Below are positions 8,172-49,142 of a stretch of 61,553 nucleotides of DNA, in pieces. The stretch comes from Candidatus Colwellbacteria bacterium. GTDB taxonomy: Bacteria; Patescibacteriota; Minisyncoccia; UBA6257; Colwellbacteraceae. The number at the start of each line of letters is the position of its first letter. The stretch's first letter is position 1. The position numbers and the translations under genes were made by a program. Location of the stretch: contig JACOWZ010000003.1 of assembly GCA_016176525.1 (NCBI GenBank), positions 1 to 61,553 on the forward strand, in the 5' to 3' direction. The notes beneath the pieces are model-generated. The model was not told the DNA's origin, did no database searches, and worked only from the letters and a program-made list of their open reading frames with translations.

Positions 8172-9063
8172 GCCAAGGATTATTATAATCTTAGGTCCAA
8201 CCGCTAGTGGAAAATCTGATTTAGCGGTAAATATCGCTAAGAAACTCAATGGCGAAGTGATTTCTGCCGATTCGCGGCAGGTTTATAATGGGTTAGATAT
8301 TGGCTCTGGAAAAATAACAAAACGCGAGATGCGCGGAGTTCGTCATTATCTTTTGGACGTCGCCTCTCCAAAAAAGGTTTTTACTGTCGCGCAATATCAA
8401 AAGCTCGGCAAACGCGCTATAAAAGATATTTTGCACCGAGGTAAACTCCCCATAATCTGTGGCGGCACCGGGCTTTATATTGATGCGCTTATATATGACA
8501 AAAAATTCCCCGCCGTGCCACCGAACAAAAAACTGCGCGCAAAATTAGAAAAACTATCAACCACAGAACTCTTTGTGCGAATTAAAAAACTAGACCCAGA
8601 GCGGGCGAAAACAATTGAAAAACAAAACCGCAGGCGATTGATTCGCGCATTAGAAATTATTGAAGAGCTAGGTAAGGTGCCGAAGATTAAAACATCGTCT
8701 CCATACGAAACGCTAAAAATCGGCATTAAACTGCCGCGAGAACGGTTGAAAAAAAATATTACGAAACGGCTTGAAAAAAGACTAAAGCAAGGAATGGTTA
8801 AAGAGGTGGAGAATTTGCATAAATCCGGCGTTAGCTGGAAGCGACTAGATGATTTAGGACTTGAGTATCGCTATGTCTCGCGATATCTGCGTGATATGAT
8901 CAATCATAACACCATGAAAGAGATGATTCTACGTGAAAGTTGGAAATACGCCCGCCGCCAAATGACGTGGTGGAGAAAAGATCAATCCATTCACTGGATT
9001 TCTGGAAAAATAAATAGCAGGCTAAATAGCCTGCTTAACTTCCGATACCCTAAACGGAAATAG
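8152..9063 (+). CDS. miaA: tRNA dimethylallyltransferase
   Basis: P-loop ILGPTASGKSDLA followed by ISADSRQVYNGLDIGSGKIT, typical of MiaA. 303 aa. Confidence 0.9.
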   Translation: MKKRLFKPRIIIILGPTASGKSDLAVNIAKKLNGEVISADSRQVYNGLDIGSGKITKREMRGVRHYLLDVASPKKVFTVAQYQKLGKRAIKDILHRGKLPIICGGTGLYIDALIYDKKFPAVPPNKKLRAKLEKLSTTELFVRIKKLDPERAKTIEKQNRRRLIRALEIIEELGKVPKIKTSSPYETLKIGIKLPRERLKKNITKRLEKRLKQGMVKEVENLHKSGVSWKRLDDLGLEYRYVSRYLRDMINHNTMKEMILRESWKYARRQMTWWRKDQSIHWISGKINSRLNSLLNFRYPKRK

Positions 9064-9298
9064 ATTTTGCCCTTACATCAGTCGGCGGCATAAATGCGTA
9101 CTTCAAACCGCAGCGTGTACAATGAATTTCTTCGGTAATAACTTGCATTGTCCCAACCGGATTAAATTGTGTTGGGTATGGTTCAGTGCTGGATGTTTCA
9201 GAAACTACCACTGTACCGCCACAAAACACACATTCGCCGGTTTTTGCCTTGCGATCTGGTTGCTTTAGCAATGTTTCAGTTTTCAGCATTTTTTCCAC
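9050..9298 (-). CDS. Small zinc-ribbon protein, function unknown (higher-GC)
   Basis: CVFCGG ... CTRCG pairs of CxxC. GTG start. Its 3' end overlaps the miaA 3' end by 14 nt. Composition is clearly GC-richer than the flanks. Confidence 0.4.
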   Translation of the reverse strand: MEKMLKTETLLKQPDRKAKTGECVFCGGTVVVSETSSTEPYPTQFNPVGTMQVITEEIHCTRCGLKYAFMPPTDVRAKSISV

Positions 9299-9348
9299 CC
9301 TATGTGGAGTACTAAAAGGGTTTATAGCGTAAATATCTTTACTTTGTC

Positions 9349-9376
9349 AAATAAAAACCGACGGATAAACCATCGG
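9349..9376 (-). terminator. Rho-independent terminator after the 230-aa orphan
   Basis: On the minus strand: CCGATGG-tttat-CCGTCGG followed by TTTTTATTT, 13 nt after the stop at 9389. Confidence 0.5.
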
Positions 9377-9388
9377 CATGCGTGGGAT

Positions 9389-10081
9389 CTACTCCCCACT
9401 TCGGTTGTCGACCATCTCGGTGCGCCATAGGATGTGCGGTCCATTAAGGACCAGGTCTTTGTGGTCCGGCGCACGGAGAGTCCCCTCGGCGATAGTTCCT
9501 CTCCCGTAATTAGGAGAATGAACCTGCCCACCACAGAGACTGTGTCTGGTATTTCCAATAGGAATCCCTTTCTTCTGATCAGCGATTTGGAAATCCGTCT
9601 TGGAGTGACCGAGCGCGATCATCGCGATCCGCAGATTCTCCCAAGTAGTCGGTATCGGAACACAGAACCAGTCACCTTGGCGTAGAGCAGTAACGCCAAA
9701 GTTCTTTTCCAGTTCTTTGATCCGTTCGGGCTTGAGACTATCGTAGAATGCCTGTTCGCCTTGGCGCAGAATTTGAGCCGCCTGATCTTGCATCCTTACG
9801 ACAAAGGCAGACGCCTCGTCGGTGCCGCCGAAAAGGACCCATCTGGCATGCTCTAGTGGCACAATAAGGATAAATTGTTCTCCTCCGCGAAGAGGGAAAA
9901 ATTCTGCCTCATCCAGATATGGCAGGAAAATTGTGCGACCCTTGCAGTGCGGAGATTGCACCATAAGCTTGTTTTTATCTTTCTTGTCTTGAGTGGGTAG
10001 AACCCACTCAATATTAGCTGCTCCGGCTTTGCGCGGAACTTGTCCGCTTGCCTTTAACTCAAACAACCGCATTTTTCTCAC
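9389..10081 (-). CDS. Hypothetical protein, no recognisable family (higher-GC orphan)
   Basis: 230-aa ORF preceded by GAGGTGAGAAAAATG and followed by its own terminator. I recognise no motif. Confidence 0.55.
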   Translation of the reverse strand: MRKMRLFELKASGQVPRKAGAANIEWVLPTQDKKDKNKLMVQSPHCKGRTIFLPYLDEAEFFPLRGGEQFILIVPLEHARWVLFGGTDEASAFVVRMQDQAAQILRQGEQAFYDSLKPERIKELEKNFGVTALRQGDWFCVPIPTTWENLRIAMIALGHSKTDFQIADQKKGIPIGNTRHSLCGGQVHSPNYGRGTIAEGTLRAPDHKDLVLNGPHILWRTEMVDNRSGE

Positions 10082-10151
10082 CTCTATATGTCTGACCCCG
10101 AACCTCGGGATCGATGTGCTGGGATTTTTATATCACTAAAAAAATAGTACG

Positions 10152-11573: not shown

Positions 11574-11593
11574 ATAAATATAAGTTTAACACG

Positions 11594-11702
11594 AACCAAA
11601 CCCATTGTGTCGAGAGTCATTTTCGGAGCGCGACGGCGCGAGAAGAAGGCGAAAATTCAGTAAGAATTTTATGCCGGTGACTCGAGATACTGTGGGTTTG
11701 GT
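11594..11702. repeat. Long imperfect inverted repeat (arms about 25 nt, 58-nt centre) between rplK and gatB
   Basis: aaccaaacccattgtgtcgagagtca (11594-11619) pairs with tgactcgagatactgtgggtttggt (11678-11702). The outer 10 bp and inner 6 bp are perfect. Confidence 0.5.
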
Positions 11703-11713
11703 GAGAAACTAAA

Positions 11714-12139
11714 TTACTCTTTTATTTCTATCCCAGAAGACCGCGCTGTGCCCTCAACAATTTTCATCGCGGCGTCTATGTCGTTTGCGTTTAGGTCTTC
11801 CATCTTGCGCTCGGCAATCTCTCTAACCTGTGCGCGGGTAACTTTGCCAACTTTGTTTTTGTTAGGCTCACCGGAACCTTTTTCTATACCTGCGGCTTTG
11901 CGCAAAAGCGCAGATGCAGGCGGAGTGCGAAGCTTAAAAGTAAAACTTCTGTCTTCATAAATAGTGATCTCCGCAGGCACAATATCACCTATCATAGTTT
12001 TTGTAGCGTCGTTAAACTGCTTACAAAACTCTGCAATAGCAATGCCGTGCTGGCCGAGTGCCGGGCCTATTGGAGGCGCAGGGTTCGCTTTGCCCGCTTG
12101 AATCTGTAACTTTAATACTGTTTTAATTGGTTTAGCCAT
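11714..12139 (-). CDS. rplK: 50S ribosomal protein L11
   Basis: 141 aa. [23 protein letters not shown] is the canonical L11 N-terminus. Confidence 0.93.
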
Positions 12140-12143
12140 AATT

Positions 12144-12713
12144 TTATAGTTTTCTTATTTGCAATGAATCCAATTCTACGGCTGTATCTCTGCCGAAAAT
12201 TGCAACCAATACTTTAACACGCCCGCGTTCTTCGTCAACTTCTGCAATCTTGCCATCGTGGTCCCTGAATGGACCATCAGTGATGCGAACTGTTTCGCCA
12301 ACTGTATAATCAAACTTATGTTTTGTGTCGCGCTTACCCATTCTGGACATCAACTCATTAATTTCTTCTTTGGAGAGCGGTGAAGGGTTAGTAGGGTCAG
12401 CGCCCACAAAACCTGTTACGCGCGGAGTGTTGCGCACCACATACCAAGTGTCGGGTTCCATAACCATATCAACAAGCACATAACCGTGGTAGATTTTTTC
12501 TTCCACCTCAATACGCTTGCCGCCTCTTATTTTAATTTTCTTTTCTTTAGGGACAATAATACTAAAAATCTTATCGTTAAGAGAGAGAGCGTCAACACGC
12601 GTTTTTAAGTAGCGGGCTACCGCGTCTTCGTAGCCAGAATAAGTATGCACCGCATACCATTCCCTAGATTTAGTTTTGTCCGTTTTGACTTCCTTCATTA
12701 TTATTTGTTTCAA
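12144..12713 (-). CDS. nusG: Transcription termination/antitermination factor NusG
   Basis: [14 protein letters not shown] start and a C-terminal KOW ([21 protein letters not shown]). The true start may be the internal Met at 12698. Confidence 0.9.
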
Positions 12714-12966
12714 TTTGCACCTCTACTGGGTTACCTTCGCTGTCTATCGCCTCTACTCCTCCCGCTTCTATCGGAAGCTCTTGTTCAGGAACAATAACCT
12801 TTAATCCTTCTAGGAAAAGATAATCCCAAAAACCCAAAAAAACCGCCATCACTACGGATATAACTATCACAATAAAAACCAACTTAAATGTTTCTCTGCG
12901 ACTGGGCCAATTTACCCTTTTAAATTCCTGCTTAGACTCCCTAAGGAACGATGTAAGTTTCGCCAT
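12670..12966 (-). CDS. secE: Preprotein translocase subunit SecE with an acidic C-terminal extension
   Basis: KQEFKRVNWPSRRET plus a single TM helix, in the conserved secE-nusG-rplK order. An extra acidic tail of about 45 aa overlaps nusG. Confidence 0.75.
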   Translation of the reverse strand: MAKLTSFLRESKQEFKRVNWPSRRETFKLVFIVIVISVVMAVFLGFWDYLFLEGLKVIVPEQELPIEAGGVEAIDSEGNPVEVQIETNNNEGSQNGQN

Positions 12967-13011
12967 ATCGTGGGGCTAAATATACCTGCTTTACGCGCGT
13001 TTGACAAGGGG

Positions 13012-14994
<1,983 letters not shown>

Positions 14995-15020
14995 AGAACC
15001 ACCTAAAATAACAAATTGAA

Positions 15021-16160
15021 TTATCTTATAACTCCCTTAAATTGCGCTTTGGTTTCGGCCTCTATTTTGGCCTGTATTGGTTCTATTTCTTCGGTCTTTA
15101 AAGTGCGCTCGTTGGAACGGTAAATTACCCTATAAGTGTAGCTTAGCTTGCCTTTGCCGAATTTTTTTTCGTCCTCGTATTTATCTAAAAGTTGAACTTC
15201 TTCTACTAAATCACCGCCTATGTCGCGAATTAAATCAAAATAATCGTTTGGCACAAAGTCCGCCGAAACTACAAACGATATATCGCGTGTAATGGGCGGA
15301 TAAATACTCACTTCTTTGTAGTGATGCCCTAGTTTTAGTTGCTTCTTGACCCTCTTATCATCCGACCACAAAAGCCGAATATCCGGCAAATCCATTGATG
15401 CCATCGCCAAGCGCTCCAAGCCAAAGCCGAATGCCCAGCCATGATAACCTTCCAACCCAAAGTTTTTTAAAACGCTTTTGCGTGGCTGGCCGGAACCAAC
15501 CATTTCCATCCAATTGTCGTTGATAAATGCTTCCATCTCAAAACTCGGATCAGTGTATGGGAAGTTGTGGTCGTAAAAACGGAACTTTGTTTCCTCTCCA
15601 AATATTGCACGTGCGATTTTAGAAAGGATTTCTTTTAAGTCTTCTGGTTTAACAGTTTCTTTACCGTCGGCAGCAAGATATAGCCCGCCCATTTGGTGAA
15701 ACACGTTCATGTGTTTGCGGTCTATCTCGTCTTTTCTGTAAACCTTGCCAAAACAAATTGCGCCGAAAGACTGTTTATTTTTTATTCTTTCTTTAATTTC
15801 CGGCTGGTTTAGGTAGTAATACCAAAACACTGTGTCGTGCGTGCGGAGCACATATTTGTCGTTAACATAATATGTATCTGACTTACTGCGAGCGGGGTGC
15901 CCAGGGGGCATATTAAACAAATCAAAAAGAATATCGGTAGAAACAATCTCCGGCACTTTTATAATATGGAAATCTTCTAGGCCCTTAACTTTTAGAGTGC
16001 GTTGCACCACTTCGTAAAGCGGGCTGCCGTTAGTACGCGACAAGTCCGGCATTGCAAGAAAACGCGCAAGCCGCTTGCCCTCCGCATCTGTTTTTTTGTT
16101 TACCTCTTCTAAAAGCTGTTTTTCCTTATCGTCTTCAATAATTATCTCCTTGTGGGGCAT
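15021..16160 (-). CDS. pheS: Phenylalanyl-tRNA synthetase alpha subunit
   Basis: Class II motifs (HPARSKSDTYY, FGKVYRKDEIDRKH, AFGFGLERLAM). 379 aa. Confidence 0.9.
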   Translation of the reverse strand: MPHKEIIIEDDKEKQLLEEVNKKTDAEGKRLARFLAMPDLSRTNGSPLYEVVQRTLKVKGLEDFHIIKVPEIVSTDILFDLFNMPPGHPARSKSDTYYVNDKYVLRTHDTVFWYYYLNQPEIKERIKNKQSFGAICFGKVYRKDEIDRKHMNVFHQMGGLYLAADGKETVKPEDLKEILSKIARAIFGEETKFRFYDHNFPYTDPSFEMEAFINDNWMEMVGSGQPRKSVLKNFGLEGYHGWAFGFGLERLAMASMDLPDIRLLWSDDKRVKKQLKLGHHYKEVSIYPPITRDISFVVSADFVPNDYFDLIRDIGGDLVEEVQLLDKYEDEKKFGKGKLSYTYRVIYRSNERTLKTEEIEPIQAKIEAETKAQFKGVIR

Positions 16161-16192
16161 ATGAATTTATATAATAGCAAAATAATACACGA

Positions 16193-16232
16193 AATAAAAA
16201 GCGCAGAGGTGTGAAAGATTCACACATGCGCT
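16193..16232 (-). terminator. Rho-independent terminator after the Nudix gene
   Basis: On the minus strand: AGCGCATGTGTGA-loop-TCACACCTCTGCGCT followed by TTTTTATTT, 9 nt after the stop. Confidence 0.55.
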
Positions 16233-16240
16233 TTTGCGCC

Positions 16241-16738
16241 CTACTGGCGCGCCTGGTGAGCCCGGAAACCGGCGAGGACCATCGTCATCATCCGGCTCAC
16301 GTAACCCTTACTTGTGGGGTTGGTGAGCACCTGGATCTGGCCGCCGAAAAGATCAGCAACGCTGACCAAGCGTGCGTCCAGATGTGAATCCGTCGGAAAG
16401 CTCGTGAGCTCTCCGCCTGTGACCTCACAAAGGTGCACGACTGCCTCGTCGCTCGCTTGCGTTACAACTCCAGGAGGAGCCGTAAGTTCGGGAGAAACGA
16501 CTCCCAGCGATCGGACTTCGAGTCCAGTCTCTTCGCGCACGCGCCTCGCAAGACACTCCTCGTCGCTCTCGCCCTCGTTCGCCCGCCCGCCAGTGAGCTC
16601 CCACTGCTTGGGGTAACCCTTACCATCTGGCGTGCCGGCTCGCTGGATCAGTAGGATCCGCGGAATGTTCTCTTCAATTCGGACGATTGCTCCGAATACT
16701 CCTCGTGTCGATTTCTGTTGCGTTGCTGTTTCAGTCAA
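16241..16738 (-). CDS. Nudix hydrolase (higher-GC)
   Basis: Nudix box GGRANEGESDEECLARRVREETGLEV. TTG start preceded by GAGGTGA. GC-rich relative to neighbours. Confidence 0.8.
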   Translation of the reverse strand: MTETATQQKSTRGVFGAIVRIEENIPRILLIQRAGTPDGKGYPKQWELTGGRANEGESDEECLARRVREETGLEVRSLGVVSPELTAPPGVVTQASDEAVVHLCEVTGGELTSFPTDSHLDARLVSVADLFGGQIQVLTNPTSKGYVSRMMTMVLAGFRAHQARQ

Positions 16739-16850
16739 CTTGGTTCACCTCATATTTGGTTGTCCGTCCCGCACCGCGGGACAAGAACTAACCGCAGTAA
16801 AACATACGCTCAAAGAATTGTCAAACAAAAAACCACTCACTAAAAACGTG

Positions 16851-16922
16851 TTGCGGGGCCGGGAATTGAACCCGGTTCTACAGCTTATGAGGCTGTCGAG
16901 GTAACCGTTCCTCCACCCCGCG
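16851..16922 (-). tRNA. tRNA-Met (CAT), probably the initiator
   Basis: Hand-folded cloverleaf CGCGGGG-UG-GAGG..CCUC-G-ACAGC-CUCAUAA-GCUGU-..CCGGG-UUCAAUU-CCCGG-CCCCGCA-A. The C1:A72 mismatch is as in bacterial tRNA-fMet. No encoded CCA. Confidence 0.8.
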
Positions 16923-16968
16923 ATATGGGGTTTATGTTATAGATTTATCCAAGACTTGTCAAAAAAAC

Positions 16969-16996
16969 TGTTAATTGTTATATGTTAATTGTTACA
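16969..16996. repeat. Intergenic heptamer array TGTTAWW x4 between divergent tRNA genes
   Basis: tgttaat tgttata tgttaat tgttaca. It ends 12 nt upstream of the + strand tRNA. Confidence 0.7.
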
Positions 16997-17007
16997 AGTT
17001 ATTTTCC

Positions 17008-17079
17008 GCCGGTGTAGTTCAATGGCTAGAACGAGGGACTCATAAGCCTTAAATGGAAGTTCGATTCTTCCCACCGGCA
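17008..17079 (+). tRNA. tRNA with CAT anticodon (elongator Met or lysidine-modified Ile2)
   Basis: GCCGGTG acceptor pairs with CACCGGC. Anticodon loop CTCATAA, T-arm GGAAG-TTCGATT-CTTCC. 72 nt. No encoded CCA. Confidence 0.75.
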
Positions 17080-17109
17080 CAAAGCTACTTAACAACGAGG
17101 TGAAAAATA

Positions 17110-17436
17110 GTGCTGATCTTGGAAGTTCAAATGCCAGATAAAAGCTGGAAGGAGACTTGTAGGGTTTATCCTCATCAAGCGCCGGGCAGTATTACAGATA
17201 ATAAACCGGATGGCACGCGTGATGTATATTTGTTCTATTGCGAAGATGATGACGGCTGCTCTAAAGTTCTCAAATCCCGCGGCGGTGTTGATACTGCAGA
17301 TCCTTCTACAAGAGTCGTTACAAACCTCGCAGGGTTTGAACTAGTAAAGACTATTCACCCGCGCGAATACTTTACTATGACGATTCTTACCGACGAGTCG
17401 CAAGAGCCGCGTAAGATACGCATTAAGCACTTTTAA
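17110..17436 (+). CDS. Hypothetical small protein
   Basis: GTG start 7 nt after GAGGTGA. 108 aa with no recognised motif. Followed by its own terminator. Confidence 0.45.
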   Translation: MLILEVQMPDKSWKETCRVYPHQAPGSITDNKPDGTRDVYLFYCEDDDGCSKVLKSRGGVDTADPSTRVVTNLAGFELVKTIHPREYFTMTILTDESQEPRKIRIKHF

Positions 17437-17445
17437 TTTCTTCTG

Positions 17446-17478
17446 CACCCGCACATGATTTAGCTCGGGTGTTTTTTT
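17446..17478 (+). terminator. Rho-independent terminator
   Basis: cacccg (17446-51) pairs with cgggtg (17466-71), followed by ttttttt. Confidence 0.45.
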
Positions 17479-17488
17479 ATAAAAAGAA

Positions 17489-17517
17489 TTGACAACATAG
17501 CATTTATATAGTAATTT
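17489..17517 (+). promoter_or_regulatory. Putative sigma-70-like promoter
   Basis: TTGACA (17489-94), a 17-nt spacer, then TAATTT (17512-17), about 100 nt upstream of ORF 17615. Confidence 0.3.
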
Positions 17518-17614
17518 AGCAAAACCTGTTCCTTAACAAGGGGGTAAAAAAACGCAAACCATTAAAGTATCGTTAATCCCGCATTCGTATGCAAGATTTG
17601 TCGAAAGGTGGTGG

Positions 17615-17875
17615 TTGAAAAAGATGAAAAAACCTTCCCATGACGATGTCTTGCATGTACTGAGCACTAACTTCACAGAAGCGGAATGGATAGAGCACTA
17701 CGGTAATACTACCGAATTTTTTCTTCGTTTCTCTAATGATGCAGTGTTTGTTATTAAACTCTGCAACGAGGAAGATCTATTCATAGCGAAAACCTTCAAA
17801 CACATGCGTCTGCAATCGCCCAAAAAACCCCGCAAAGTAAAAGTACATTGGGGGGAACTTGTTAAAGAAGTTTAG
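17615..17875 (+). CDS. Hypothetical small protein
   Basis: 86-aa ORF. AAGGTGG lies upstream, so the real start may be the ATG at 17624. No motif recognised. Confidence 0.4.
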   Translation: MKKMKKPSHDDVLHVLSTNFTEAEWIEHYGNTTEFFLRFSNDAVFVIKLCNEEDLFIAKTFKHMRLQSPKKPRKVKVHWGELVKEV

Positions 17876-17900
17876 AGAGAATATTAGGGCAATCTCAAAC

Positions 17901-17927
17901 ACTCCGACTTAGTCGGAGTTTTTATTT
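17901..17927 (+). terminator. Rho-independent terminator overlapping the MFS gene 3' end
   Basis: actccgac-tta-gtcggagt followed by ttttattt. Confidence 0.5.
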
Positions 17928-19069
17928 GCAAATAAACTCACCAATAAGGTAACAATTAAAACTATTGCGGCCCCAGTGATGAAGAGCACCTGAAAACCGA
18001 AAGTAGAAACAATAAAGCCGCCGATTAGCGCCCCTAGTGCAACGCCAAGCGGTGCGAAGATGGTGTCTACCACTCCCGCCTCAATTGCGTGCTCCGGAAA
18101 TTCTTTAGAAATCGCACCGGATCTGCGGGAGTTCATCATAAAATCAGAGAAAGATTTAGAAGTGTTAACAAATAGTAATCCGCTCAAAGGCAGTTTATAC
18201 CCCATAGCACCAATAACAAACGTTGAGGCCGCATGTATAAAACCGCCCCAGAATATTCCCCCACTCACTATTGCCTTCTTTAAAAACCTAACAGTTATAA
18301 GAGAAATCGGCACAAGCGCGGCAGAAAAAACTCCAACATAGGTTATAATCTCGGACTGGCTTAACCCGCGATCTTTTAAGAAAAGTATAAAAAATGAGCT
18401 GTAAAAGCCGTCTACAATAAGCATCGCAAAACTCAGAATTAAAATGTTTAATAATCCCCTCTCTTTTATTCGTTTAAATATAGATAAATAATTCTTTAAG
18501 TCGCCGATGTGGGCATGCGCGGCGTGGTGACTCGCAATATATTCGCCTTTATGAATCGCACGCAAAAGAATATTCAATAAATAAATTAAAATACTTGCTA
18601 TAAATACGCCAAAGAATCCGAAGAAATATAAAATTATGCCTCCTATAATAGGCGCTATAAAGTTTGCATAAATCGGCGCCGAATAAAACCAACCAAATGC
18701 CGCGTCATGGTGCACAAGTTCGGATTCAATCAACATTGCACGAGAAGATACAAAGAAAAGTGCTGCGGAACAACCCAACATAACCTGCAAAAAATAAAAA
18801 GGCAGTCCCGGACTAACGGCAATCATTCCCAGAGAGTATAGTGCATAGCCGGATATCCCAACACCAGATAAAAACACTGGCGAAAATCTATTAGACAATA
18901 TCCCAACAACAGGTGCGAAAAGTACAAATGCGATGTATATAAAAAAATATGAGTAACCTATCTGTGACAAAACCAACCCCCTCTCTACTAGATATAGTGC
19001 AAAATAAGCCGAGAACAGCTTATAACCGAACATTAATAGGAAGTGAGATAGAACAATTTTGCGAATCAT
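17909..19069 (-). CDS. MFS-type transporter
   Basis: 386 aa with about 12 predicted TM helices in a 6+6 layout and a central loop. Confidence 0.7.
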   Translation of the reverse strand: MIRKIVLSHFLLMFGYKLFSAYFALYLVERGLVLSQIGYSYFFIYIAFVLFAPVVGILSNRFSPVFLSGVGISGYALYSLGMIAVSPGLPFYFLQVMLGCSAALFFVSSRAMLIESELVHHDAAFGWFYSAPIYANFIAPIIGGIILYFFGFFGVFIASILIYLLNILLRAIHKGEYIASHHAAHAHIGDLKNYLSIFKRIKERGLLNILILSFAMLIVDGFYSSFFILFLKDRGLSQSEIITYVGVFSAALVPISLITVRFLKKAIVSGGIFWGGFIHAASTFVIGAMGYKLPLSGLLFVNTSKSFSDFMMNSRRSGAISKEFPEHAIEAGVVDTIFAPLGVALGALIGGFIVSTFGFQVLFITGAAIVLIVTLLVSLFANKNSD

Positions 19070-19092
19070 ATAGATTAGAATAACATATAGCT

Positions 19093-20355
19093 ATGAAAGA
19101 CACAGAAAAAATAATCAATTCTGGCAATAACGTGTATGTTGTTGGCATTAAGGGTGCAGGAGTTGCGGGGCTCGCACAATTTTTAAAAGGACGAGGATAC
19201 AAGATTAGCGGCTCGGACACAAAAGAAAAATTTTTTACAGATGCGCTTTTGAAGAAAGCGCACATACCCTACCGCGAGGGGTTTAGCACTAAGAATATTC
19301 CGCACAAAATTGATTGGGTTCTGGCTTCAAACGCATATATCAGCAAAGACTCAGAAAATCCGGAAATAAAAGCACTGCGGCGGCGCAAAATCCCAATATT
19401 CAGCTACCCGGAAGTTTTGAGTTATTTCTTCAACAAAAGCTACGGTATAGCAATAGCGGGTACGCACGGTAAAACCACAACCTCGGCTGCAATCGCACAC
19501 ATTTTAAAAACTGCAGGCATGCGTCCAAGCGCTTTAATCGGCGGAGAAGTTATTAATTGGAAATCAAATACTCTAACCGGCAAGTCTAATATATTTGTAA
19601 TTGAAGCGGACGAATATAAAGACGCGTTTTTAAATTATAGGCCAAACGTAATAGTAATACTAAATACTGACTGGGACCACCCAGATTATTTTAGAACACA
19701 TAAAAAATATCTAATTTCATTTAAAAAGTTTAAAAGAAATCTAAAACCGGGGGGTAGAATATTTGAGCCTAGAAATTTTATAAAGATAAAATTACCTGCA
19801 AATCCCCGTATCGCAGGAGAACACAATAAATACAACTTAAAAGCCGCAGTTGCAGTAACCAAACATTTAGGCGTAAAAAATAATATTATTAAAAAAGCAA
19901 TAGCTAATTTTAAAGGAACGCAACGTAGGTTAGAGGTAGTCGGCAAATTGCGCGGCAACATATTAGTTGATGACTACGCGCACAACTCACAGAAAGTAGA
20001 AGCTTCAATAAATGCTCTGCGAGATGAATACCCGAATAAAGAAATAACTGTGGTTTTTCAGCCGCACACATATACACGCACTGTTCAATTTTTGGAAGAA
20101 TTTGCGAGAGCTCTGATTTTGGCAGACAACATATTCTTGCTTGATATTTATTCTTCGGCACGCGAGAAGAAGGGTAAAATAACAAGTAATGATTTAATGC
20201 GTGAAGTAATAAAACTGGGCAAGCTTGCCGATAATCTAAGGACTGTGTCGGCAGCAGTGCGATTCTTTAAAAAATGGCCGCGTAAAAACCAAGTTATAGT
20301 AGCGATGGGCGCTGGGGATGTTGGCGCGCTTGCACACAAATTAAAAGGGGTCTAG
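19093..20355 (+). CDS. murC: UDP-N-acetylmuramate--L-alanine ligase
   Basis: N-terminal Rossmann VVGIKGAGVAGLAQFL, Mur ligase P-loop GTHGKTTTSA and a C-terminal Mur ligase domain. 420 aa. Confidence 0.85.
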   Translation: MKDTEKIINSGNNVYVVGIKGAGVAGLAQFLKGRGYKISGSDTKEKFFTDALLKKAHIPYREGFSTKNIPHKIDWVLASNAYISKDSENPEIKALRRRKIPIFSYPEVLSYFFNKSYGIAIAGTHGKTTTSAAIAHILKTAGMRPSALIGGEVINWKSNTLTGKSNIFVIEADEYKDAFLNYRPNVIVILNTDWDHPDYFRTHKKYLISFKKFKRNLKPGGRIFEPRNFIKIKLPANPRIAGEHNKYNLKAAVAVTKHLGVKNNIIKKAIANFKGTQRRLEVVGKLRGNILVDDYAHNSQKVEASINALRDEYPNKEITVVFQPHTYTRTVQFLEEFARALILADNIFLLDIYSSAREKKGKITSNDLMREVIKLGKLADNLRTVSAAVRFFKKWPRKNQVIVAMGAGDVGALAHKLKGV

Positions 20356-20392
20356 AATGGGTTTTTTAGCTCATTTACAAGTTAACTTACGA

Positions 20393-20428
20393 CAGCAAAG
20401 AGGAGAATTCCTCTTCTTTTCTTTGCTG
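20393..20428 (+). terminator. Terminator-like hairpin after murC
   Basis: agagga-gaat-tcctct followed by tcttttcttt. An alternative outer stem is cagcaaag/ctttgctg. Confidence 0.4.
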
Positions 20429-20463
20429 CCGTAAGAAATCGGCAGAGTAAAAAGAGGGATAGC

Positions 20464-21096
20464 TTGGAACAGATACAAGTAGAAGTAAGAAATGTAAGTG
20501 AGAGGGCTCTCCTAAAAGAGTTCTCTCGGCAAGCTGAACGACTTACGGCCATCGGCTACGATGCCGCAGATCTAGAACCATTGAGGCAAAAAATCAGCAA
20601 TATGCAGATTCCCATGCGGAAGGGCGGCATTCCATTTGTTATCGCGGTTCCAGCGGTAATCGCCAACCCAAAACTCCAAATGCAAAATCTCATTTTGCTG
20701 AACATCCGAGGTTATGTGCGCCTACCGATTCAAAAAATCGGGTATGCAAACGGGGCAACAGTTCCCAACAAACCCTACCTACTAGTAGACGTTGAACCAG
20801 GGCTAAAAACTTCGGGCATGACTCCCGAAAGATGCACCGAGGTTTTCAAAGACCAAGGACGACTCGGACTTACAGCGGAGGAAGGAATAGCGCTTGCAAC
20901 TCAATTCCCGGAACTTTTCAACGTTCTAGAGGGGGGAAATCCGCGCAAAATCTATCTGCCCGGCGCAACATTCGGACCAGAGAGTACACTCTACGTCTGG
21001 AGGAACGAACAAGGCGAGATTTGGCTCTACTGTGGCTGGACAAGCAAAGTTGAGCCCGGCGGACGTTCTGCCTCCTGCGTAAACCGCATAAGTTAG
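20464..21096 (+). CDS. Hypothetical protein (higher-GC orphan)
   Basis: 210 aa. TTG start after AAGAGGGA. No family recognised. Wedged between convergent murC and murD. Confidence 0.5.
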   Translation: MEQIQVEVRNVSERALLKEFSRQAERLTAIGYDAADLEPLRQKISNMQIPMRKGGIPFVIAVPAVIANPKLQMQNLILLNIRGYVRLPIQKIGYANGATVPNKPYLLVDVEPGLKTSGMTPERCTEVFKDQGRLGLTAEEGIALATQFPELFNVLEGGNPRKIYLPGATFGPESTLYVWRNEQGEIWLYCGWTSKVEPGGRSASCVNRIS

Positions 21097-21111
21097 ACGC
21101 TACCGATATAA

Positions 21112-21144
21112 AGACCCACGCTTTAGCGATGGGTCTATTTTTTA
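21112..21144 (+). terminator. Rho-independent terminator after the 210-aa orphan
   Basis: agaccca-cgctttagcga-tgggtct followed by attttttat. Overlaps the murD 3' end. Confidence 0.45.
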
Positions 21145-22364
21145 TATTTTTTTACGTATTTTTTAAACAAATCACCTTTTTCTTCAAAGTTCTTCCATAC
21201 TGAATAGCTGGGCGAGGCGCAAGATAGCATGCATACAAAACCCCTTGGAGTATGCGCATATCCAAACTCAACAGCAGTTTCCATATCTCTGGTTTCTAGA
21301 ATATTCCAATCGTTGCCGAGACGGGTAAGCTCTTCTAAAATTCTAGCACCGCTATCCGGGAAAAGAACCACGTTTCTTATGCCGCTAAACCTAACTTTCT
21401 CCGCAAGCTTAGAGAAATCATATCCCCTATCTGTGCCGCCCAAAAAAATTGTGCCTACATTAGGTATTGAATTTAATGCCTCAATTGTAGACTCCGGCGT
21501 TGTTGAAATAGCATCATCATAAAAAGTAATGCCTTTATGTGTTCCTACAAATTCCAAGCGATGCGGCAATGGCTTAAAATTCTTAACTGCTTTTTCTATA
21601 GTTTTAGTAGGAATTTTAAAGATACTCGCAATAGTCACCGCGGCTTTTATGTTCTCTATATTATGCTGGCCTACAAGAGGCAAACCCTCTTCCGAAAAAG
21701 GCAGCTTTTCTATATATGGCACTGGTTTTGCATTAGTTTTTTTAGCAAGTTCTATAAGCTCTGGATAGCCTGGATTGTAAACAAAGTAGTCGTCCACGCT
21801 TGCAAACTGTAAAATTCTTTTCTTCGCCGCTTTATATTCTGTAAACCCGCCGTGGTAATCCATATGCTCCGGAAATAAGTTTAAAACCGCAGCAATATGA
21901 GGCGAATATTCTATATCAGACAACTGATAGCTAGAGAGCTCAAAAACATATATAGCTTCTTTAGTTTTTGGTTTTATTAGCTCCATCGTAGCTGGCTTGC
22001 CAATATTGCCTACAAGGTAAGCATCAAAACCTGCAACTTTTAATATGTTATAGGTCAACGAGGCGACTGTACTCTTGCCTTTTGTGCCAGTGATGCCGAC
22101 GATTGGCCCATTAGCATTTGCAAAAAATATATTTGTCGGAGTGGTATACTTCGCCGATACCAGTTTTTGCGGAATTCCGGGAGATTTTATAACCAAATCA
22201 TAATCATTTTGCTTTAGCAAATAATCCGGGTCGTCTTTTTGGTCGGCAATGCCTATTTTAGAATCAGGACAATATTTTTCCAAGAATTTGTGCACTGCCT
22301 TGCCCTCTAGGCCATAACCCAAAATTAAAATCCTTTTATATTTCTTTAATTCTTTTAAATTCAT
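21135..22364 (-). CDS. murD: UDP-N-acetylmuramoylalanine--glutamate ligase (MurD family)
   Basis: N-terminal ILILGYGLEGKAV, P-loop GITGTKGKSTV and Mur ligase middle and C-terminal domains. 409 aa. Confidence 0.85.
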   Translation of the reverse strand: MNLKELKKYKRILILGYGLEGKAVHKFLEKYCPDSKIGIADQKDDPDYLLKQNDYDLVIKSPGIPQKLVSAKYTTPTNIFFANANGPIVGITGTKGKSTVASLTYNILKVAGFDAYLVGNIGKPATMELIKPKTKEAIYVFELSSYQLSDIEYSPHIAAVLNLFPEHMDYHGGFTEYKAAKKRILQFASVDDYFVYNPGYPELIELAKKTNAKPVPYIEKLPFSEEGLPLVGQHNIENIKAAVTIASIFKIPTKTIEKAVKNFKPLPHRLEFVGTHKGITFYDDAISTTPESTIEALNSIPNVGTIFLGGTDRGYDFSKLAEKVRFSGIRNVVLFPDSGARILEELTRLGNDWNILETRDMETAVEFGYAHTPRGFVCMLSCASPSYSVWKNFEEKGDLFKKYVKKYKK

Positions 22365-23715: not shown

Positions 23716-23739
23716 GTTATAATGAAGCGCGTGTGAAAT

Positions 23740-23815
23740 GCGGTCGTGGTGTAGCCCGGTCCAACACGCCTCCCTGTCACGGAGGAGATCGCCGGTTCAA
23801 ATCCGGTCGACCGCG
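23740..23815 (+). tRNA. tRNA-Asp (GTC)
   Basis: Acceptor GCGGTCG/CGACCGC, anticodon arm CCTCC-CTGTCAC-GGAGG, T-loop GGTTCAAATCC. Confidence 0.9.
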
Positions 23816-23830
23816 CAAAGAACTAAAATT

Positions 23831-23858
23831 ACCTACTTATGTAGGTGATTTTTGTTTT
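23831..23858 (+). terminator. Terminator after tRNA-Asp
   Basis: acctac-ttat-gtaggt followed by gatttttgtttt. Confidence 0.5.
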
Positions 23859-23900
23859 GTAACGAAAACGGATTTGAACCGTGGAAAGGGGTCGGGAAAA

Positions 23901-24287: not shown

Positions 24288-24299
24288 GTTAGGTATTAT

Positions 24300-24335
24300 A
24301 ACAAAAAGACCCGATCTCTTATCACGAGACGGGTC
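24300..24335 (-). terminator. Rho-independent terminator after the gnd-like gene
   Basis: On the minus strand: GACCCGTCTC-gtgataa-GAGATCGGGTC followed by TTTTTGTT. Confidence 0.55.
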
Positions 24336-24346
24336 GAATATGTATG

Positions 24347-25264
24347 CTAGACAACTCTCTTTGATGCGGTGTCTTTAGTGTGGCCGCCGAAGTACTTGCG
24401 AAGGGCGTTGATAACGTTAGCATCAAAGCCGGGTTTCGTGCGCGAACGCGCACGCATCTCAACTGCGGCCTTGAGGAGCGGCGCGGGATATTGCGCCATA
24501 AATTTCTCCATCTCGCCCTCTGTCTCGCCATAGGGCACTTTGTCGCCGAAAGACTTGAGTCCTGGGTCGTCCTTCCAAGCAGCTGAAAGCCACTCGGTTA
24601 CAAGACGTCCGGCAACAATACTGCCGTGGCCCCAAGCTTTGATTACCTCGCCTAGATCTGTATTGAACTCCTTGGCGTCGCGTACAGCTTGAAGCCCTTC
24701 GGCGATACCTGCCATCATCACATATTCAACCCAGTTGTGGATTGCCTTAACGCGATGCCCACTACCGGAGAATCCCATATAGCCGTAGCCATTCTCTACG
24801 CATATGTCGCAAAAGAGCGGCTCCAACCGTTCAAAGATTTCACGAGGACCACCGATCATCATAGAAGCGCCATTGCGTGCGCCAGATAGGCCGCCGGAAA
24901 CGCCGACATCCATAAAATGAATACCGAGCGATTCACATTCCTTCGCGCGACGGATGCTGTCTTCATACCAGGTGTTGCCGCCATCAATAATCACATCACC
25001 CTGCGCGAGAAGAGGCTTTAACTTGTGAAGCGTCTCCTCTAAATGACTGCTCGGGATCATAAGCCAAACGAGGCGAGGAGGCGTAAGTTTGGAAACAAAA
25101 TCTTCAAAAGAATTTGCTCCAATCGCGCCACTATCAACCGCGTCTTTCATCGCATCTGGGTTCACGTCGTAGACGTGGACCTTGTGCCCCTTTTCAACGA
25201 GGCGAAGCGCCATCGCGCCGCCCATTCTTCCAGTTCCTATAAGTCCGATTTGCATGTCTTGCAT
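24347..25264 (-). CDS. gnd: 6-phosphogluconate dehydrogenase, short (about 300 aa) decarboxylating type (higher-GC)
   Basis: IGLIGTGRMGGAMALRL Rossmann motif, GDVIIDGGNTWYEDS and MDVGVSGGLSGARNGASMMIGG. Confidence 0.8.
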   Translation of the reverse strand: MQDMQIGLIGTGRMGGAMALRLVEKGHKVHVYDVNPDAMKDAVDSGAIGANSFEDFVSKLTPPRLVWLMIPSSHLEETLHKLKPLLAQGDVIIDGGNTWYEDSIRRAKECESLGIHFMDVGVSGGLSGARNGASMMIGGPREIFERLEPLFCDICVENGYGYMGFSGSGHRVKAIHNWVEYVMMAGIAEGLQAVRDAKEFNTDLGEVIKAWGHGSIVAGRLVTEWLSAAWKDDPGLKSFGDKVPYGETEGEMEKFMAQYPAPLLKAAVEMRARSRTKPGFDANVINALRKYFGGHTKDTASKRVV

Positions 25265-27031: not shown

Positions 27032-27061
27032 CAAAAAATAAAAACCCGACTAAATGTCGGG
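27032..27061 (-). terminator. Rho-independent terminator of the 143-aa orphan
   Basis: On the minus strand: CCCGAC-attta-GTCGGG followed by TTTTTATTTTTT. The stop codon lies in the hairpin. Confidence 0.55.
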
Positions 27062-27481
27062 GTTGGGCTTGGCGTTCCACCGCCTACCGCATCCGCCTTG
27101 TGCTTCTGGGCAAAAATCCGGATCTTCGTCGGCATCAACTCTGATCTCCATATCGCAGAGCTCGTGCTTCTTCGTCACGATAGCACGAGGAACATATTCG
27201 AAATGGACCTCAAGAACAAGTTTGCCGCGCTGGCCCCTGTAGATATTGAACTCTATGCCCAGATCAATTTTCTCGTCCAGCCACCTTTTAGTACTGAATT
27301 CCAAGTGCGGCTCAAAAAATTTATCGACCATTCTTAAGCCATACTGCTTGGTCTTTTTATCCAAGCGAATAAAGTCACGCCCCAACTCTTCGGAGCGGCT
27401 AACTTCAACAAGAATCCGCTTCCAGAGGGTTTCCGGCTTATTTGGTTTAGGTTGTGCTTCTGTTTCTAGTGTTTCTTCCAC
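27050..27481 (-). CDS. Hypothetical protein (higher-GC orphan)
   Basis: 143 aa. GTG start after AAGGAG. No recognised motif. Sits between ligA and gatC. Confidence 0.5.
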   Translation of the reverse strand: MEETLETEAQPKPNKPETLWKRILVEVSRSEELGRDFIRLDKKTKQYGLRMVDKFFEPHLEFSTKRWLDEKIDLGIEFNIYRGQRGKLVLEVHFEYVPRAIVTKKHELCDMEIRVDADEDPDFCPEAQGGCGRRWNAKPNPDI

Positions 27482-27526: not shown

Positions 27527-29914
<2,388 letters not shown>

Positions 29915-48419: not shown

Positions 48420-49142
48420 TCAGCGCCTGGATCTGGCGTAAACCTCGAGGAGCCGTACAAAGAGGTTTACAGCATCCAAGATCAGCCCGCCGCTTGCGTC
48501 TATTGCGTTGTCCCATGTTAGCGGCAATTCCATTGCCTTAGCCCAGTCGTAGGCAACGAAGATCGTAAAGATTAGGATCCCTGCCCAGATGAGCACCCAG
48601 TCTAGTACAGACCCAGGCGCCGCCCACTCAAAGCCCATAACTCCGAAGATGATCTGGCCAAACAGAGCCAAGATCAAAACTCCGAGAGCTCCGAGAAGAT
48701 AGGGGCCTAAACCGCTAAACGCTCTTGGGTAGACAATGCCGACGCAAGACATTAGCACCATTATTGCGGCTGTTGTTAGAATCGCCTGTGCTACAACCAC
48801 GCTTGTGTAGGTTGCAACAACGGGACCCATCATAACGCCTAACGCTAGGCTCATAATGGTTACGCCGAGCAAGCTTATAAACGGATTGTCGTTTAGCGCG
48901 AAAATGAATATTGCGACGATTGACACGATAAACGTGCCGATTAGAAGCAGCCACGTAAACGGCCAGTCGTAGCTTACGACAACTCCAAATGCAACCACAA
49001 CGGCCATAAGGAGCGTTGAGAACGCCGTAGCTCGCACGAAAGCGGGCTTGCTGATTTCGTCACTGCCGCGGCGATTCCAGATGAATCCCCCAAGGCCCTT
49101 GTGTTCGTCCTCGCCTCTGTTGCCATATCTGTATCCATCCAA
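48420..49142 (-). CDS. Bax-inhibitor-1/YccA-like 7-TM membrane protein (higher-GC)
   Basis: 240 aa with a soluble N-terminus followed by about 7 TM helices. GAGGTGAGAAAAG lies upstream. The family call rests on topology only. Confidence 0.45.
   Translation of the reverse strand: MDGYRYGNRGEDEHKGLGGFIWNRRGSDEISKPAFVRATAFSTLLMAVVVAFGVVVSYDWPFTWLLLIGTFIVSIVAIFIFALNDNPFISLLGVTIMSLALGVMMGPVVATYTSVVVAQAILTTAAIMVLMSCVGIVYPRAFSGLGPYLLGALGVLILALFGQIIFGVMGFEWAAPGSVLDWVLIWAGILIFTIFVAYDWAKAMELPLTWDNAIDASGGLILDAVNLFVRLLEVYARSRR

What the first reader, a model, noticed from the sequence alone, without database searches (positions are those of the whole stretch)
16193..16738. Recurrent pattern: self-contained higher-GC single-gene cassettes wedged between low-GC core operons
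By eye, at least eight ORFs are markedly GC-richer than the surrounding roughly 40% GC genes:
- 9050-9298 and 9389-10081
- 16241-16738 (Nudix)
- 20464-21096
- 24347-25264 (gnd)
- 27050-27481
- 48420-49142 (BI-1-like)
- 61113-61553 (RT)
- more weakly, 17110-17436
They share an architecture. They have a strong SD, often GAGGTGA: GAGGTGAGAAAAATG at 10081, GAGGTGAGAAAAG before 49142, GAGGTGAACCAAGTTG at 16738, GAGGTGAAAAATAGTG at 17110. They frequently use TTG/GTG starts. Each has a private GC-rich stem terminator hugging or overlapping the stop codon (9349-9376, 16193-16232, 21112-21144, 24300-24335, 27032-27061, 48372-48408, 61093-61126). Several are next to tRNA genes. No integrase, transposase or flanking direct repeats are visible. 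This resembles promoter-less or terminator-bounded gene cassettes acquired from a higher-GC donor, possibly the host or partner organism of an episymbiont.
Basis: partly seen in the sequence, partly recalled or inferred. Interest (0 to 1): 0.65.

Follow-up and report, generated by a model that had tools for sequence, protein, structure and literature searches.

The report
GC-rich single-gene inserts in CPR genome
Seven stand-alone genes with foreign-looking base composition, each with its own ribosome-binding site and terminator, sit between conserved housekeeping genes of an ultra-small groundwater bacterium; they look like ordinary gene transfer among such bacteria rather than capture from a host.

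Summary
Seven of the nine listed ORFs are compositional outliers: GC 0.48-0.59 against a gene median of 0.42, codon-usage z -2.4 to -9.5, dinucleotide delta* 116 against a null of 36±12. ORFs 9050-9298 and 17110-17436 are not outliers. Independent assemblies from three groundwater runs span every junction at even depth.

In relatives the flanking core genes abut: miaA|gatB, ligA|gatC and tRNA-Met|pheS. All seven have a hairpin+U terminator. All six complete ones have a strong Shine-Dalgarno (SD) site, whereas native genes and core genes of relatives have none and often look leaderless. Four of six have promoter-like hexamers, so they are not promoter-less.

No integrase, transposase, flanking repeat or shared att/attC-like motif exists. 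The nearest homologues of the Nudix and Bax1-I genes lie in other Patescibacteria (CPR)-type contigs. The Nudix family occupies at least four different genomic contexts. It is GC-elevated and SD-led in all six lineages examined.

Best reading: accessory genes acquired laterally, mostly within the phylum, and not from a GC-rich host. This is a known kind of event. The SD/leaderless contrast and the persistent GC offset are the interesting residue.

The parts
16241..16738 (-). Nudix hydrolase gene (165 aa, TTG start), the focal cassette
   Evidence: PF00293 E=1.3e-15. GC .594, codon z -9.5. The TTG start is supported by the N-terminal extension shared with P0010/L134.
16745..16751 (-). Shine-Dalgarno GAGGTGA, 6 nt before the TTG start
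   Evidence: dG -9.9. One of only 5 GAGGTGA in the window.
16190..16239 (-). Intrinsic terminator of the Nudix gene (nested hairpin + UUUUUAUUU)
   Evidence: MFE -21.2 kcal/mol, z -3.7.
16850..16922 (-). tRNA-Met directly upstream of the Nudix gene; abuts pheS in relatives
   Evidence: In L003, L024 and L070 the tRNA-Met lies 9-39 bp from pheS; in L041 a tRNA-Asp lies between them.
15021..16160 (-). pheS, the native gene downstream of the insert (no SD, -10-like box close to ATG)
9389..10072 (-). 227-aa protein of an uncharacterised family, with SD GAGGTGA (10078-10084) and terminator (9349-9377)
   Evidence: GC .512, codon z -5.6. 392 cluster representatives at E<=1e-3. The miaA|gatB gap is -47 to 316 bp in 9 relatives against 1088 bp here.
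20464..21096 (+). DUF5701 protein gene with terminator 21112-21146
   Evidence: PF18959 E=1.8e-11. GC .496, codon z -4.4. The same Mur|Mur slot is 193 bp and empty in L134, and holds a different GC-rich ORF in L024.
24347..25264 (-). Short-form 6-phosphogluconate dehydrogenase (gnd-like), solitary, with terminator 24300-24335
   Evidence: NF007161 scores 309.8 bits against a cutoff of 271. GC .527, codon z -3.5.
27050..27481 (-). 143-aa unknown protein inserted between ligA and gatC; terminator 27033-27061 overlaps the stop codon
   Evidence: GC3 .535, SD dG -11.6. The ligA|gatC gap is 25-98 bp in L041, L063 and L070, and about 17 bp in L058 by the tblastn coordinates.
48420..49142 (-). Bax1-I/US12 membrane protein (TTG start), SD GAGGTGA 49149-49155, terminator 48372-48408
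   Evidence: PF01027 E=2.9e-27. GC3 .598, codon z -6.2.
61113..61553 (-). C-terminal part of a retron-type reverse transcriptase (cut by the window end), terminator 61093-61126
   Evidence: Weak hits: NF038233 E=1e-5, PADLOC RT_VI E=6e-9. GC .537.
17110..17436 (+). 108-aa ORF with the same SD-led architecture; not GC-rich
   Evidence: SD GAGGTGA, dG -10.2. GC .453. No homologue in L024.
17615..17875 (+). 86-aa ORF, SD-led, with its own terminator; not GC-rich
   Evidence: SD dG -7.4. Terminator MFE -16.9 kcal/mol.
9050..9298 (-). 82-aa zinc-ribbon-like ORF in the miaA|gatB slot; not GC-rich; promoter-like site scores 11/12

Best explanation
The window comes from a Paceibacteria-type Patescibacterium (CPR) of groundwater. 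Its core genes carry no Shine-Dalgarno (SD) sequence and often have a -10 box 6-9 nt before the ATG, which looks leaderless.

The seven GC-rich ORFs are accessory genes that entered this lineage by lateral transfer, most likely from other Patescibacteria of higher GC (about 50-56%). Each was fixed as a monocistronic unit in an intergenic junction between conserved genes. Each unit has an SD-led ORF followed by an intrinsic terminator that insulates the downstream native gene. Four of the six complete units also have a promoter-like site 33-54 nt upstream.

Insertion did not use a dedicated site-specific recombinase. The inferred route is DNA uptake through the type IV pilus and ComEC encoded in the window, followed by illegitimate or homology-assisted recombination.

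Shown: atypical composition, slot occupancy compared with relatives, SD and terminator architecture, physical linkage, and a phylum-restricted distribution of the closest homologues.

Inferred: the direction and timing of transfer, the uptake route, and promoter function.
For: Composition. Seven outlier genes. Pooled GC1/GC2/GC3 of .60/.42/.55 imply a source of about 52-56% GC. Amino-acid usage is shifted to R, G, P and W and away from K, I and N. Delta* is 116 against a null maximum of 84.

Synteny.
- No cassette has a homologue in the nearest relative L024 (PheS 78% identity), which keeps the core gene order.
- The miaA|gatB slot is empty in 9 of 9 relatives.
- ligA|gatC abut in L041, L063 and L070 (25-98 bp) and in L058 (about 17 bp).
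- tRNA-Met abuts pheS in 3-4 relatives.

Mobility of the Nudix family. It occupies at least 4 contexts in 6 lineages. One is a different slot, MurY|MFS, in the synteny relative L134. One copy is a pseudogene (L087). Its distances are incongruent with those of MurA.

Homologues.
- Nudix: about 10 close relatives among 5.8e9 proteins; all six contexts examined are Patescibacteria-type contigs.
- Bax1-I: named relatives are Collierbacteria, Vogelbacteria and Parcubacteria.

Architecture. SD on 6 of 6 cassettes against 6 of 61 other genes. Core-gene starts in relatives have SD energies close to those of shuffled sequence (66 starts, mean -1.54 against -1.22).

The nearest relative L024 carries four other GC-rich segments (.59-.64) in neighbouring slots.

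The assembly is verified.

Literature. PMC12455944 reports individually transferred genes in groundwater Patescibacteria, 83% of them within the phylum, and proposes pili and competence as the route.
Against: No donor was identified. The best non-self identities are only 52-70%, so no transfer is recent enough to trace.

The GC excess of the Nudix family (+0.10 to +0.17) recurs in all six lineages. It rises with host GC (r=0.70, n=6, p=0.12). It is also seen in three lineages that share the murA-adjacent locus and a common terminator design. Simple transfer followed by amelioration does not predict this.

Bax1-I is likewise GC-elevated in two lineages that share a ychF-adjacent locus.

The closest available relative is still distant (45-78% protein identity), so loss in relatives cannot be excluded for slots compared with few genomes.

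Inserts in the same slots of other relatives are not generally GC-rich (mean difference -0.018).

Promoter-like sites are weak for the Nudix and DUF5701 genes.
Confidence: 0.6

Rival explanations
1. These are long-resident accessory genes, not recent imports. Certain Patescibacterial gene families keep a higher GC content and an SD-led, leadered expression design wherever they live, through selection (low or tunable expression, mRNA stability) or GC-biased gene conversion. The differences between slots reflect local rearrangement and loss.
For: The Nudix GC offset is about constant (+0.10 to +0.17) and rises with host GC in six lineages. L081, L084 and L087 share the murA-adjacent locus and terminator design. 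The window and L134 share the N-terminal extension, and their Nudix identity (52%) is similar to their core identity (43-63%). Bax1-I is GC-elevated at a shared ychF locus in L128 and L129. SD presence is kept although the UTR sequences are not alignable.
Against: The pseudogenised L087 copy is still 15 points above its host GC, so function-linked selection is not maintaining the offset there. The window copy is closer to L084, L087 and L133 (65-70%) than to its synteny relative L134 (52%). GC1, GC2 and the dinucleotide signature are shifted as well, not GC3 alone. Nine of nine relatives lack anything in the miaA|gatB slot.
Confidence: 0.22
2. The genes were captured from a higher-GC non-CPR host or partner organism.
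For: Composition implies sources of about 48-66% GC. Beyond four metagenomic relatives, gnd is about 45% identical to Bacillales, Chlorobi and other phyla. The only hit for the DUF5701 gene among plasmid records is an actinomycete at 25% identity. PMC12455944 reports a minority of transfers from other phyla.
Against: The closest Nudix and Bax1-I relatives are on Patescibacteria-type contigs whose core genes lack SD. The best gnd relative (58%) lies in a gnd-pgl gene cluster on a contig whose core genes lack SD and have -10 boxes close to the start. No hit above 70% to any named non-CPR organism was found.
Confidence: 0.1
3. The cassettes belong to a site-specific mobile system, either integron-like cassettes or tRNA-targeting islands, whose recombinase lies outside the window.
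For: The units are single ORFs with a structured 3' end. The Nudix gene lies at the 3' side of a tRNA-Met.
Against: The units are dispersed rather than arrayed. There are no shared flank motifs, direct repeats or inverted repeats above chance. The 3' structures are plain terminators with U-runs. Homology between copies ends at the ORF. No integrase is present in the 61 kb.
Confidence: 0.03
4. The pattern is an assembly or binning chimera.
For: None beyond the composition shift itself.
Against: Three independent run assemblies span every junction with zero differences and an even 15-19x depth.
Confidence: 0.01

Closest known systems
Individually transferred genes and small genomic islands of groundwater Patescibacteria (PMC12455944, mSystems 2025)
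   Same: Same habitat and phylum. The transfers are single genes, mostly within the phylum, mostly not recent, with pili and competence proposed as the route. The cassette functions here are likewise accessory.
   Different: In the passages read, that study does not describe the unit anatomy seen here: an SD-led ORF with a private terminator, set in a genome whose core genes lack SD. Nor does it describe a GC excess that recurs for the same family in several hosts.
Compositionally atypical (horizontally acquired) genes in the Lawrence-Ochman / GeneMarkS-2 sense (PMC6028130)
   Same: Deviant GC at all three codon positions, deviant codon and dinucleotide usage, and patchy phyletic distribution.
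   Different: Atypical genes are usually AT-richer than the host (stated in PMC6028130). Here they are GC-richer. The direction depends on host GC across relatives.
Integron gene cassettes
   Same: Single ORFs with a structured 3' end and little non-coding DNA.
   Different: No attC consensus, no array, no IntI or attI. Most have their own promoter-like site, and the 3' hairpins are U-tailed terminators.
tRNA-linked genomic islands and integrative elements
   Same: The Nudix gene lies beside a tRNA-Met gene.
   Different: No integrase and no duplicated tRNA 3' end. The insert is one gene of 0.6 kb, and the other cassettes are not at tRNAs.
Bacterial genomes with frequent leaderless transcription (GeneMarkS-2 'group C') and Parcubacteria lacking the anti-SD motif (PMC9297842)
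   Same: Native genes have a -10 box 6-9 nt before the start and no SD. uL1 is missing at its canonical site, as in the Parcubacteria subgroup reported often to lack the anti-SD.
   Different: In this window and in six other contigs, the SD-led genes are largely the accessory or GC-rich ones. I did not find this split by gene class described in the papers read.

Membership tests
Horizontally acquired gene (compositional and phyletic definition) | Base composition, codon usage and dinucleotide signature deviate significantly from the resident genes | tested here: met
   seven genes, codon z -2.4 to -9.5; pooled delta* 116 against a null maximum of 84.
Horizontally acquired gene (compositional and phyletic definition) | Absent from the syntenic position in related genomes | tested here: met
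   miaA|gatB is empty in 9/9 relatives, ligA|gatC in 3/4 (plus L058), and tRNA-Met|pheS in 3-4. L024 and L134 lack the genes at these sites. The nearest relative is only 45-78% identical.
Horizontally acquired gene (compositional and phyletic definition) | Gene tree incongruent with the species tree | tested here: inconclusive
   Only pairwise identities were available. Nudix and MurA distances are incongruent. The window copy is closer to L084, L087 and L133 than to the synteny relative L134. No proper phylogeny was possible.
Integron gene cassette | attC recombination site (imperfect inverted repeat with conserved core) at the 3' end, shared among cassettes | tested here: not met
   The 3' structures are short GC stems followed by U-runs. 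No 8-mer is shared apart from the T-tract. No flank homology exists between Nudix copies.
Integron gene cassette | Array next to intI/attI/Pc; cassettes promoter-less | tested here: not met
   The units are dispersed over 52 kb. No integrase is present in the window (Pfam). Four of six have promoter-like sites.
tRNA-targeting integrative island | Tyrosine or serine integrase and a direct repeat of the tRNA 3' end at the far border | tested here: not met
   No integrase. The longest direct repeat flanking the Nudix gene is 7 nt, P=0.97.
IS or MITE-type transposable element | Terminal inverted repeats and a target-site duplication | tested here: not met
   flanking direct and inverted repeats are within chance (best P=0.05 for A/T runs).
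Nudix hydrolase superfamily (gene 16241-16738) | Nudix fold and Nudix box GX5EX7REUXEEXGU | tested here: met
   PF00293 E=1.3e-15. The box reads G51-RANEG-E57-SDEECLA-R65-R-V-R-E-E-T-G-L. The first E of the 'RE' pair is R in this copy but E in some homologues, e.g. P0002, P0003 and P0007. The substrate is not inferable; PDB hits are generic MutT-like.
Short-form decarboxylating 6-phosphogluconate dehydrogenase (gene 24347-25264) | Score above the curated family cut-off | tested here: met
   NF007161 scores 309.8 against 271. The equivalog TIGR00872 scores 288.3, below its cut-off of 297.2.
Retron reverse transcriptase (61113-61553) | Complete RT domain with adjacent msr/msd ncRNA | not testable with these tools
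   Only the C-terminal 146 aa lie in the window. Hits to retron RT models are weak (E 1e-5 to 6e-9).

The most novel reading that the evidence does not exclude
Patescibacteria may share a circulating pool of small accessory genes with its own 'dialect'. These genes have a GC content that does not track the host's and an SD-led, leadered, self-terminated unit design. The vertically inherited core of the same genomes has abandoned SD for leaderless or SD-independent initiation. In this reading the SD acts as a portability signal that lets a gene be translated wherever it lands. The persistent GC excess reflects continual movement between hosts, or biased gene conversion, rather than one recent import.
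Probability: 0.3. Interest if true: 0.65.

Novelty: new member of a known kind. Interest (0 to 1): 0.45.

Why it matters
Ultra-small CPR bacteria have minimal genomes, and how they gain functions is an open question. This window gives a clean, assembly-verified example of gene gain one gene at a time, without mobile-element machinery, at junctions of conserved operons. The imported genes bring or acquire a different translation-initiation design from the native genes.

If the SD/leaderless split between accessory and core genes holds genome-wide and across the phylum, it would have two uses. It would give a cheap marker for acquired genes in CPR genomes. It would also bear on whether ribosomes of uL1-less Parcubacteria still use the anti-SD.

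Tried and rejected
- Flanking direct repeats and inverted repeats: at chance level.
- Shared flank k-mers: only the terminator T-tract TTTTTATTT.
- Motif TTCCTTAACAA(G/A)GG in two 5'UTRs: 6 matches at <=3 mismatches against 6.2 expected.
- Rfam: only the 5 tRNAs.
- Viral contig scans for the Nudix, 9389, DUF5701 and 27050 proteins: nothing.
- PHROGs and PADLOC: only generic Nudix, dehydrogenase and RT hits.
- Exact-protein look-up of the window's own contig: hidden or not on record.
- Metagenome scan for the Nudix family: only one further close context, L087/88.
- RNA runs to map transcript starts: none available.
- PDB sequence searches for the three unknown cassette proteins: nothing.
- Single-sequence AF2 of the 9389 protein: useless, pLDDT 34.
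- Idea that slot inserts are GC-rich throughout the class: rejected (mean difference -0.018).
- Idea that the extra ORF after L11 in L024 is uL1: rejected, it is thymidylate kinase.
- Misassembly: rejected.

Full report
**What the window is.** The 61.5-kb window has 42.6% GC. It encodes a typical Patescibacteria (CPR) housekeeping set:
- replication, RNA processing and ribosome: dnaE, thrS, miaA, gatB, L11, nusG, secE, gyrB, pheS;
- cell wall and repair: Mur ligases, gatCA, ligA;
- DNA uptake: a complete type IV pilus operon and ComEC;
- ion transport and redox: P-type ATPases and msrAB.

PheS finds 222 relatives in genome collections, all of them Patescibacteria MAGs. The closest is L024 at 78% identity. 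The organism is present in three groundwater metagenome runs of one study.

**Check of the observation.** I called 68 genes and scored each one.

| ORF | codon z |
|---|---|
| 16241-16738 | -9.5 |
| 48420-49142 | -6.2 |
| 9389-10081 | -5.6 |
| 20464-21096 | -4.4 |
| 24347-25264 | -3.5 |
| 27050-27481 | -2.8 |
| 61113-61553 | -2.4 |

ORFs 9050-9298 and 17110-17436 are not outliers. Pooled, the seven have GC1/GC2/GC3 of .60/.42/.55 against .51/.36/.39 for the rest. They use more R, G, P and W and less K, I and N. Their dinucleotide signature differs from the rest by delta* 116, where random gene subsets give 36±12. The GC step coincides with the ORF boundaries.

**Assembly.** The arrangement is not an assembly artefact. 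Logan contigs from three runs, including a 4,094-bp and an 8,427-bp contig, are 100% identical to the window. They cross every cassette junction in 8600-28500 and 46500-61553 at a flat depth of 15-19x.

**Anatomy.**
- *Terminators.* All seven ORFs are followed by a GC stem and a U-run. A strict terminator scan finds one after 4/7 cassettes against 5/61 other genes.
- *SD.* The SD observation turned out to be the sharpest feature. All six complete cassettes pair strongly with the anti-SD (dG -6.3 to -11.6). The other 61 genes average -1.6, and only six reach -6. Two of those six are the small non-GC-rich ORFs 17110-17436 and 17615-17875, which lie in the same variable slot (Fisher p=9e-6).
- *GAGGTGA.* This heptamer occurs five times in the whole window. 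Four are exactly these SDs, and the fifth lies inside tRNA-Ser.
- *Native genes.* Many have a TATAAT-like box ending 6-9 nt before the ATG. This is the arrangement described for leaderless genes (PMC6028130).
- *Relatives.* The lack of SD is clade-wide. At 66 alignment-anchored core-gene starts in relatives, the SD energy (mean -1.54) is close to that of shuffled sequence (-1.22).
- *Literature.* A report states that the anti-SD motif is often undetectable in a Parcubacteria subgroup that also lacks uL1 (PMC9297842). Here L11 is followed directly by gatB, with no L1 gene. In L024 the gene at that position is tmk.
- *Promoters.* Promoter-like hexamer pairs scoring 9-10 of 12 lie 33-54 nt upstream of four of the six complete cassettes. 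In random 130-nt windows, 1.1% reach >=10 and 11.7% reach >=9. The Nudix and DUF5701 genes have no such pair. The units are therefore not promoter-less.
- *Start codons.* Non-ATG starts are modestly enriched: 4/6 against 11/61, p=0.02.

**Are they insertions?** The core order is conserved in L024: miaA-gatB-...-L11-nusG-secE-gyrB-pheS-tRNAMet-tRNAMet-MFS-Mur-Mur-MurL. None of the cassettes has a homologue there.
- miaA and gatB abut (-47 to 316 bp) in nine relatives, against 1088 bp holding two genes here.
- ligA and gatC abut (25-98 bp) in three of four relatives, and about 17 bp apart in L058, against 510 bp here.
- tRNA-Met lies 9-39 bp before pheS in L003, L024 and L070, and in L041 with a tRNA-Asp between them. 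Here the Nudix unit separates them by 689 bp.
- L024 has its own four GC-rich segments (.59-.64 in a .46 background) in neighbouring slots, one of them the same Mur|Mur slot that holds DUF5701 here.
- Across 52 relatives' loci, GC-rich outlier ORFs are rare (18 of 896). They concentrate in a few lower-GC genomes. The direction of outliers depends on host GC (Fisher p=0.002). Slot inserts are not generally GC-rich.

**Where do the genes come from?**

*Nudix.* The protein has only about ten close relatives (52-70% identity) among 5.8 billion clustered proteins. I recovered six contexts:
- beside murA in L081, L084 and L087/88;
- between an 86-aa ORF and a Cu-oxidase_4 gene in L133;
- between a Mur ligase and the MFS gene in L134;
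- the window's own site.

L134 shares the window's MurL-Mur-Mur-MFS synteny. In every one of the six, the gene is 0.10-0.17 GC above its contig and is SD-led, while the neighbouring core genes have no SD. Alignment of the six loci shows homology only within the ORF. The L087 copy is a pseudogene.

*Bax1-I.* The closest named relatives are Collierbacteria, Vogelbacteria and Parcubacteria. The three contexts examined are again GC-elevated and SD-led.

*gnd.* It has four metagenomic relatives at 52-58% identity, then about 45% to many phyla. The best relative sits in a gnd-pgl gene cluster at native GC, on a contig whose core genes lack SD and have -10 boxes close to the start.

*Others.* The DUF5701 gene matches only an actinomycete, at 25% identity. 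The 9389 protein belongs to an unnamed metagenomic family of at least 392 clusters.

Nothing points to a specific GC-rich host.

**Mechanism.** No integrase, transposase, flanking repeat or shared site exists (and the Pfam calls). The genome encodes the pilus and ComEC uptake apparatus. Published work on groundwater Patescibacteria finds mostly within-phylum single-gene transfers and proposes the same route (PMC12455944).

I therefore read the cassettes as laterally acquired accessory genes fixed at operon junctions. There, a private terminator and a downstream -10 box keep the native genes expressed. The uptake route and the promoter activity are inferences.

**What does not fit neatly.** The GC excess of the Nudix family persists at a shared locus in three diverged lineages and rises with host GC (r=0.70, n=6, p=0.12). 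Either the family moves often enough never to equilibrate, or it has an intrinsic compositional set-point. The pseudogene that is still GC-rich argues against function-linked selection. The shared loci argue against purely recent transfer. I leave this as the main rival (0.22) and as the basis of the novel reading.

**Verdict.** The pattern is real and well-defined. It is mostly an instance of a known process, single-gene lateral transfer within Patescibacteria. It carries an additional, apparently undescribed contrast in translation-initiation design between acquired and core genes.

Noticed in passing
window-wide, e.g. starts at 1223, 24287, 27016, 35202, 38362, 48345, 55775, 58289 (all - strand): Native genes lack a Shine-Dalgarno sequence. 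Many have a TATAAT-like box ending 6-9 nt before the ATG, suggesting mostly leaderless transcripts. Core-gene starts in 66 cases from relatives also show SD energy close to that of shuffled sequence.
   Followed up: partly
window 11573-11714 (between L11 and gatB); L024:16370-17029: The uL1 gene is missing from its canonical place after L11. L024 has thymidylate kinase there. This fits the uL1-less Parcubacteria subgroup reported to often lack the 16S anti-SD motif.
   Followed up: partly
window 9389-10072 (-): A 227-aa protein of an unnamed family (392 cluster representatives) with conserved motifs FGGTDE, RQGD, TRH and APDH. The alignment-based AF2 model has pLDDT 93 and pTM 0.85, yet Foldseek finds no neighbour in PDB or BFVD (best E 0.05-0.17, TM <0.2). 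It is possibly an undescribed fold.
   Followed up: partly
window 61113-61553 (-): The C-terminal third of a retron-type reverse transcriptase runs off the window end. The motif at the expected YxDD position reads YVDG. Any msr/msd RNA and effector would lie outside the window.
   Followed up: no
window 17528-17541 (+) and 49166-49179 (-): A near-identical hairpin-forming motif, (G/T)TTCCTTAACAA(G/A)GG, lies in the 5' leaders of the 86-aa ORF and the Bax1-I gene, between the promoter-like site and the SD. There are only two good copies, which is not significant by count.
   Followed up: partly
L087:1603-2081 and L088:1206-1684: The Nudix homologue beside murA is a pseudogene (N-terminal frameshift plus an in-frame stop). 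It still has GC 0.549 in a contig of GC 0.39-0.40.
   Followed up: partly
L127:5739-9784 and 11271-11690: A run of four or five GC-rich (0.53-0.60), SD-led genes, including the Bax1-I homologue, lies in a 0.35-0.44 GC background beside LexA, HTH and Mrr-like genes. It is a multi-gene version of the same phenomenon.
   Followed up: no
window 24347-25264; L132:3-2872: The window's gnd is solitary, with no zwf or pgl among the window genes scanned against Pfam. Its best relative sits in a gene cluster with pgl, preceded by an unannotated 411-aa ORF. A lone 6PGDH raises the question of what supplies its substrate.
   Followed up: no
window 29560-39431 and 44164-46826: A complete type IV pilus cluster (PilD, pilins, PilC, PilT, PilB, PilM) and a split ComEC (competence and metallo-beta-lactamase parts) give the genome a DNA-uptake apparatus.
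   Followed up: partly
window 600-1223 (-): A 207-aa protein with an N-terminal membrane helix and four repeats of G(Y/F)AWS(S)N(V/I)GWI(S/D)F. It has no Pfam match.
   Followed up: no
window 50144-50223: One run (X3) carries a contig with 15 substitutions in 80 bp of the glutamate dehydrogenase gene, at the same depth. This is either a co-existing strain variant or a recombined tract.
   Followed up: no
terminators at 9349-9356, 16190-16198, 17920-17928, 27033-27044, 61095-61104: The U-tracts of the cassette terminators share the string TTTTTATTT (5 of 7 cassettes). Two are followed at once by a TTGACA of the next unit, so terminator and next promoter are fused.
   Followed up: partly
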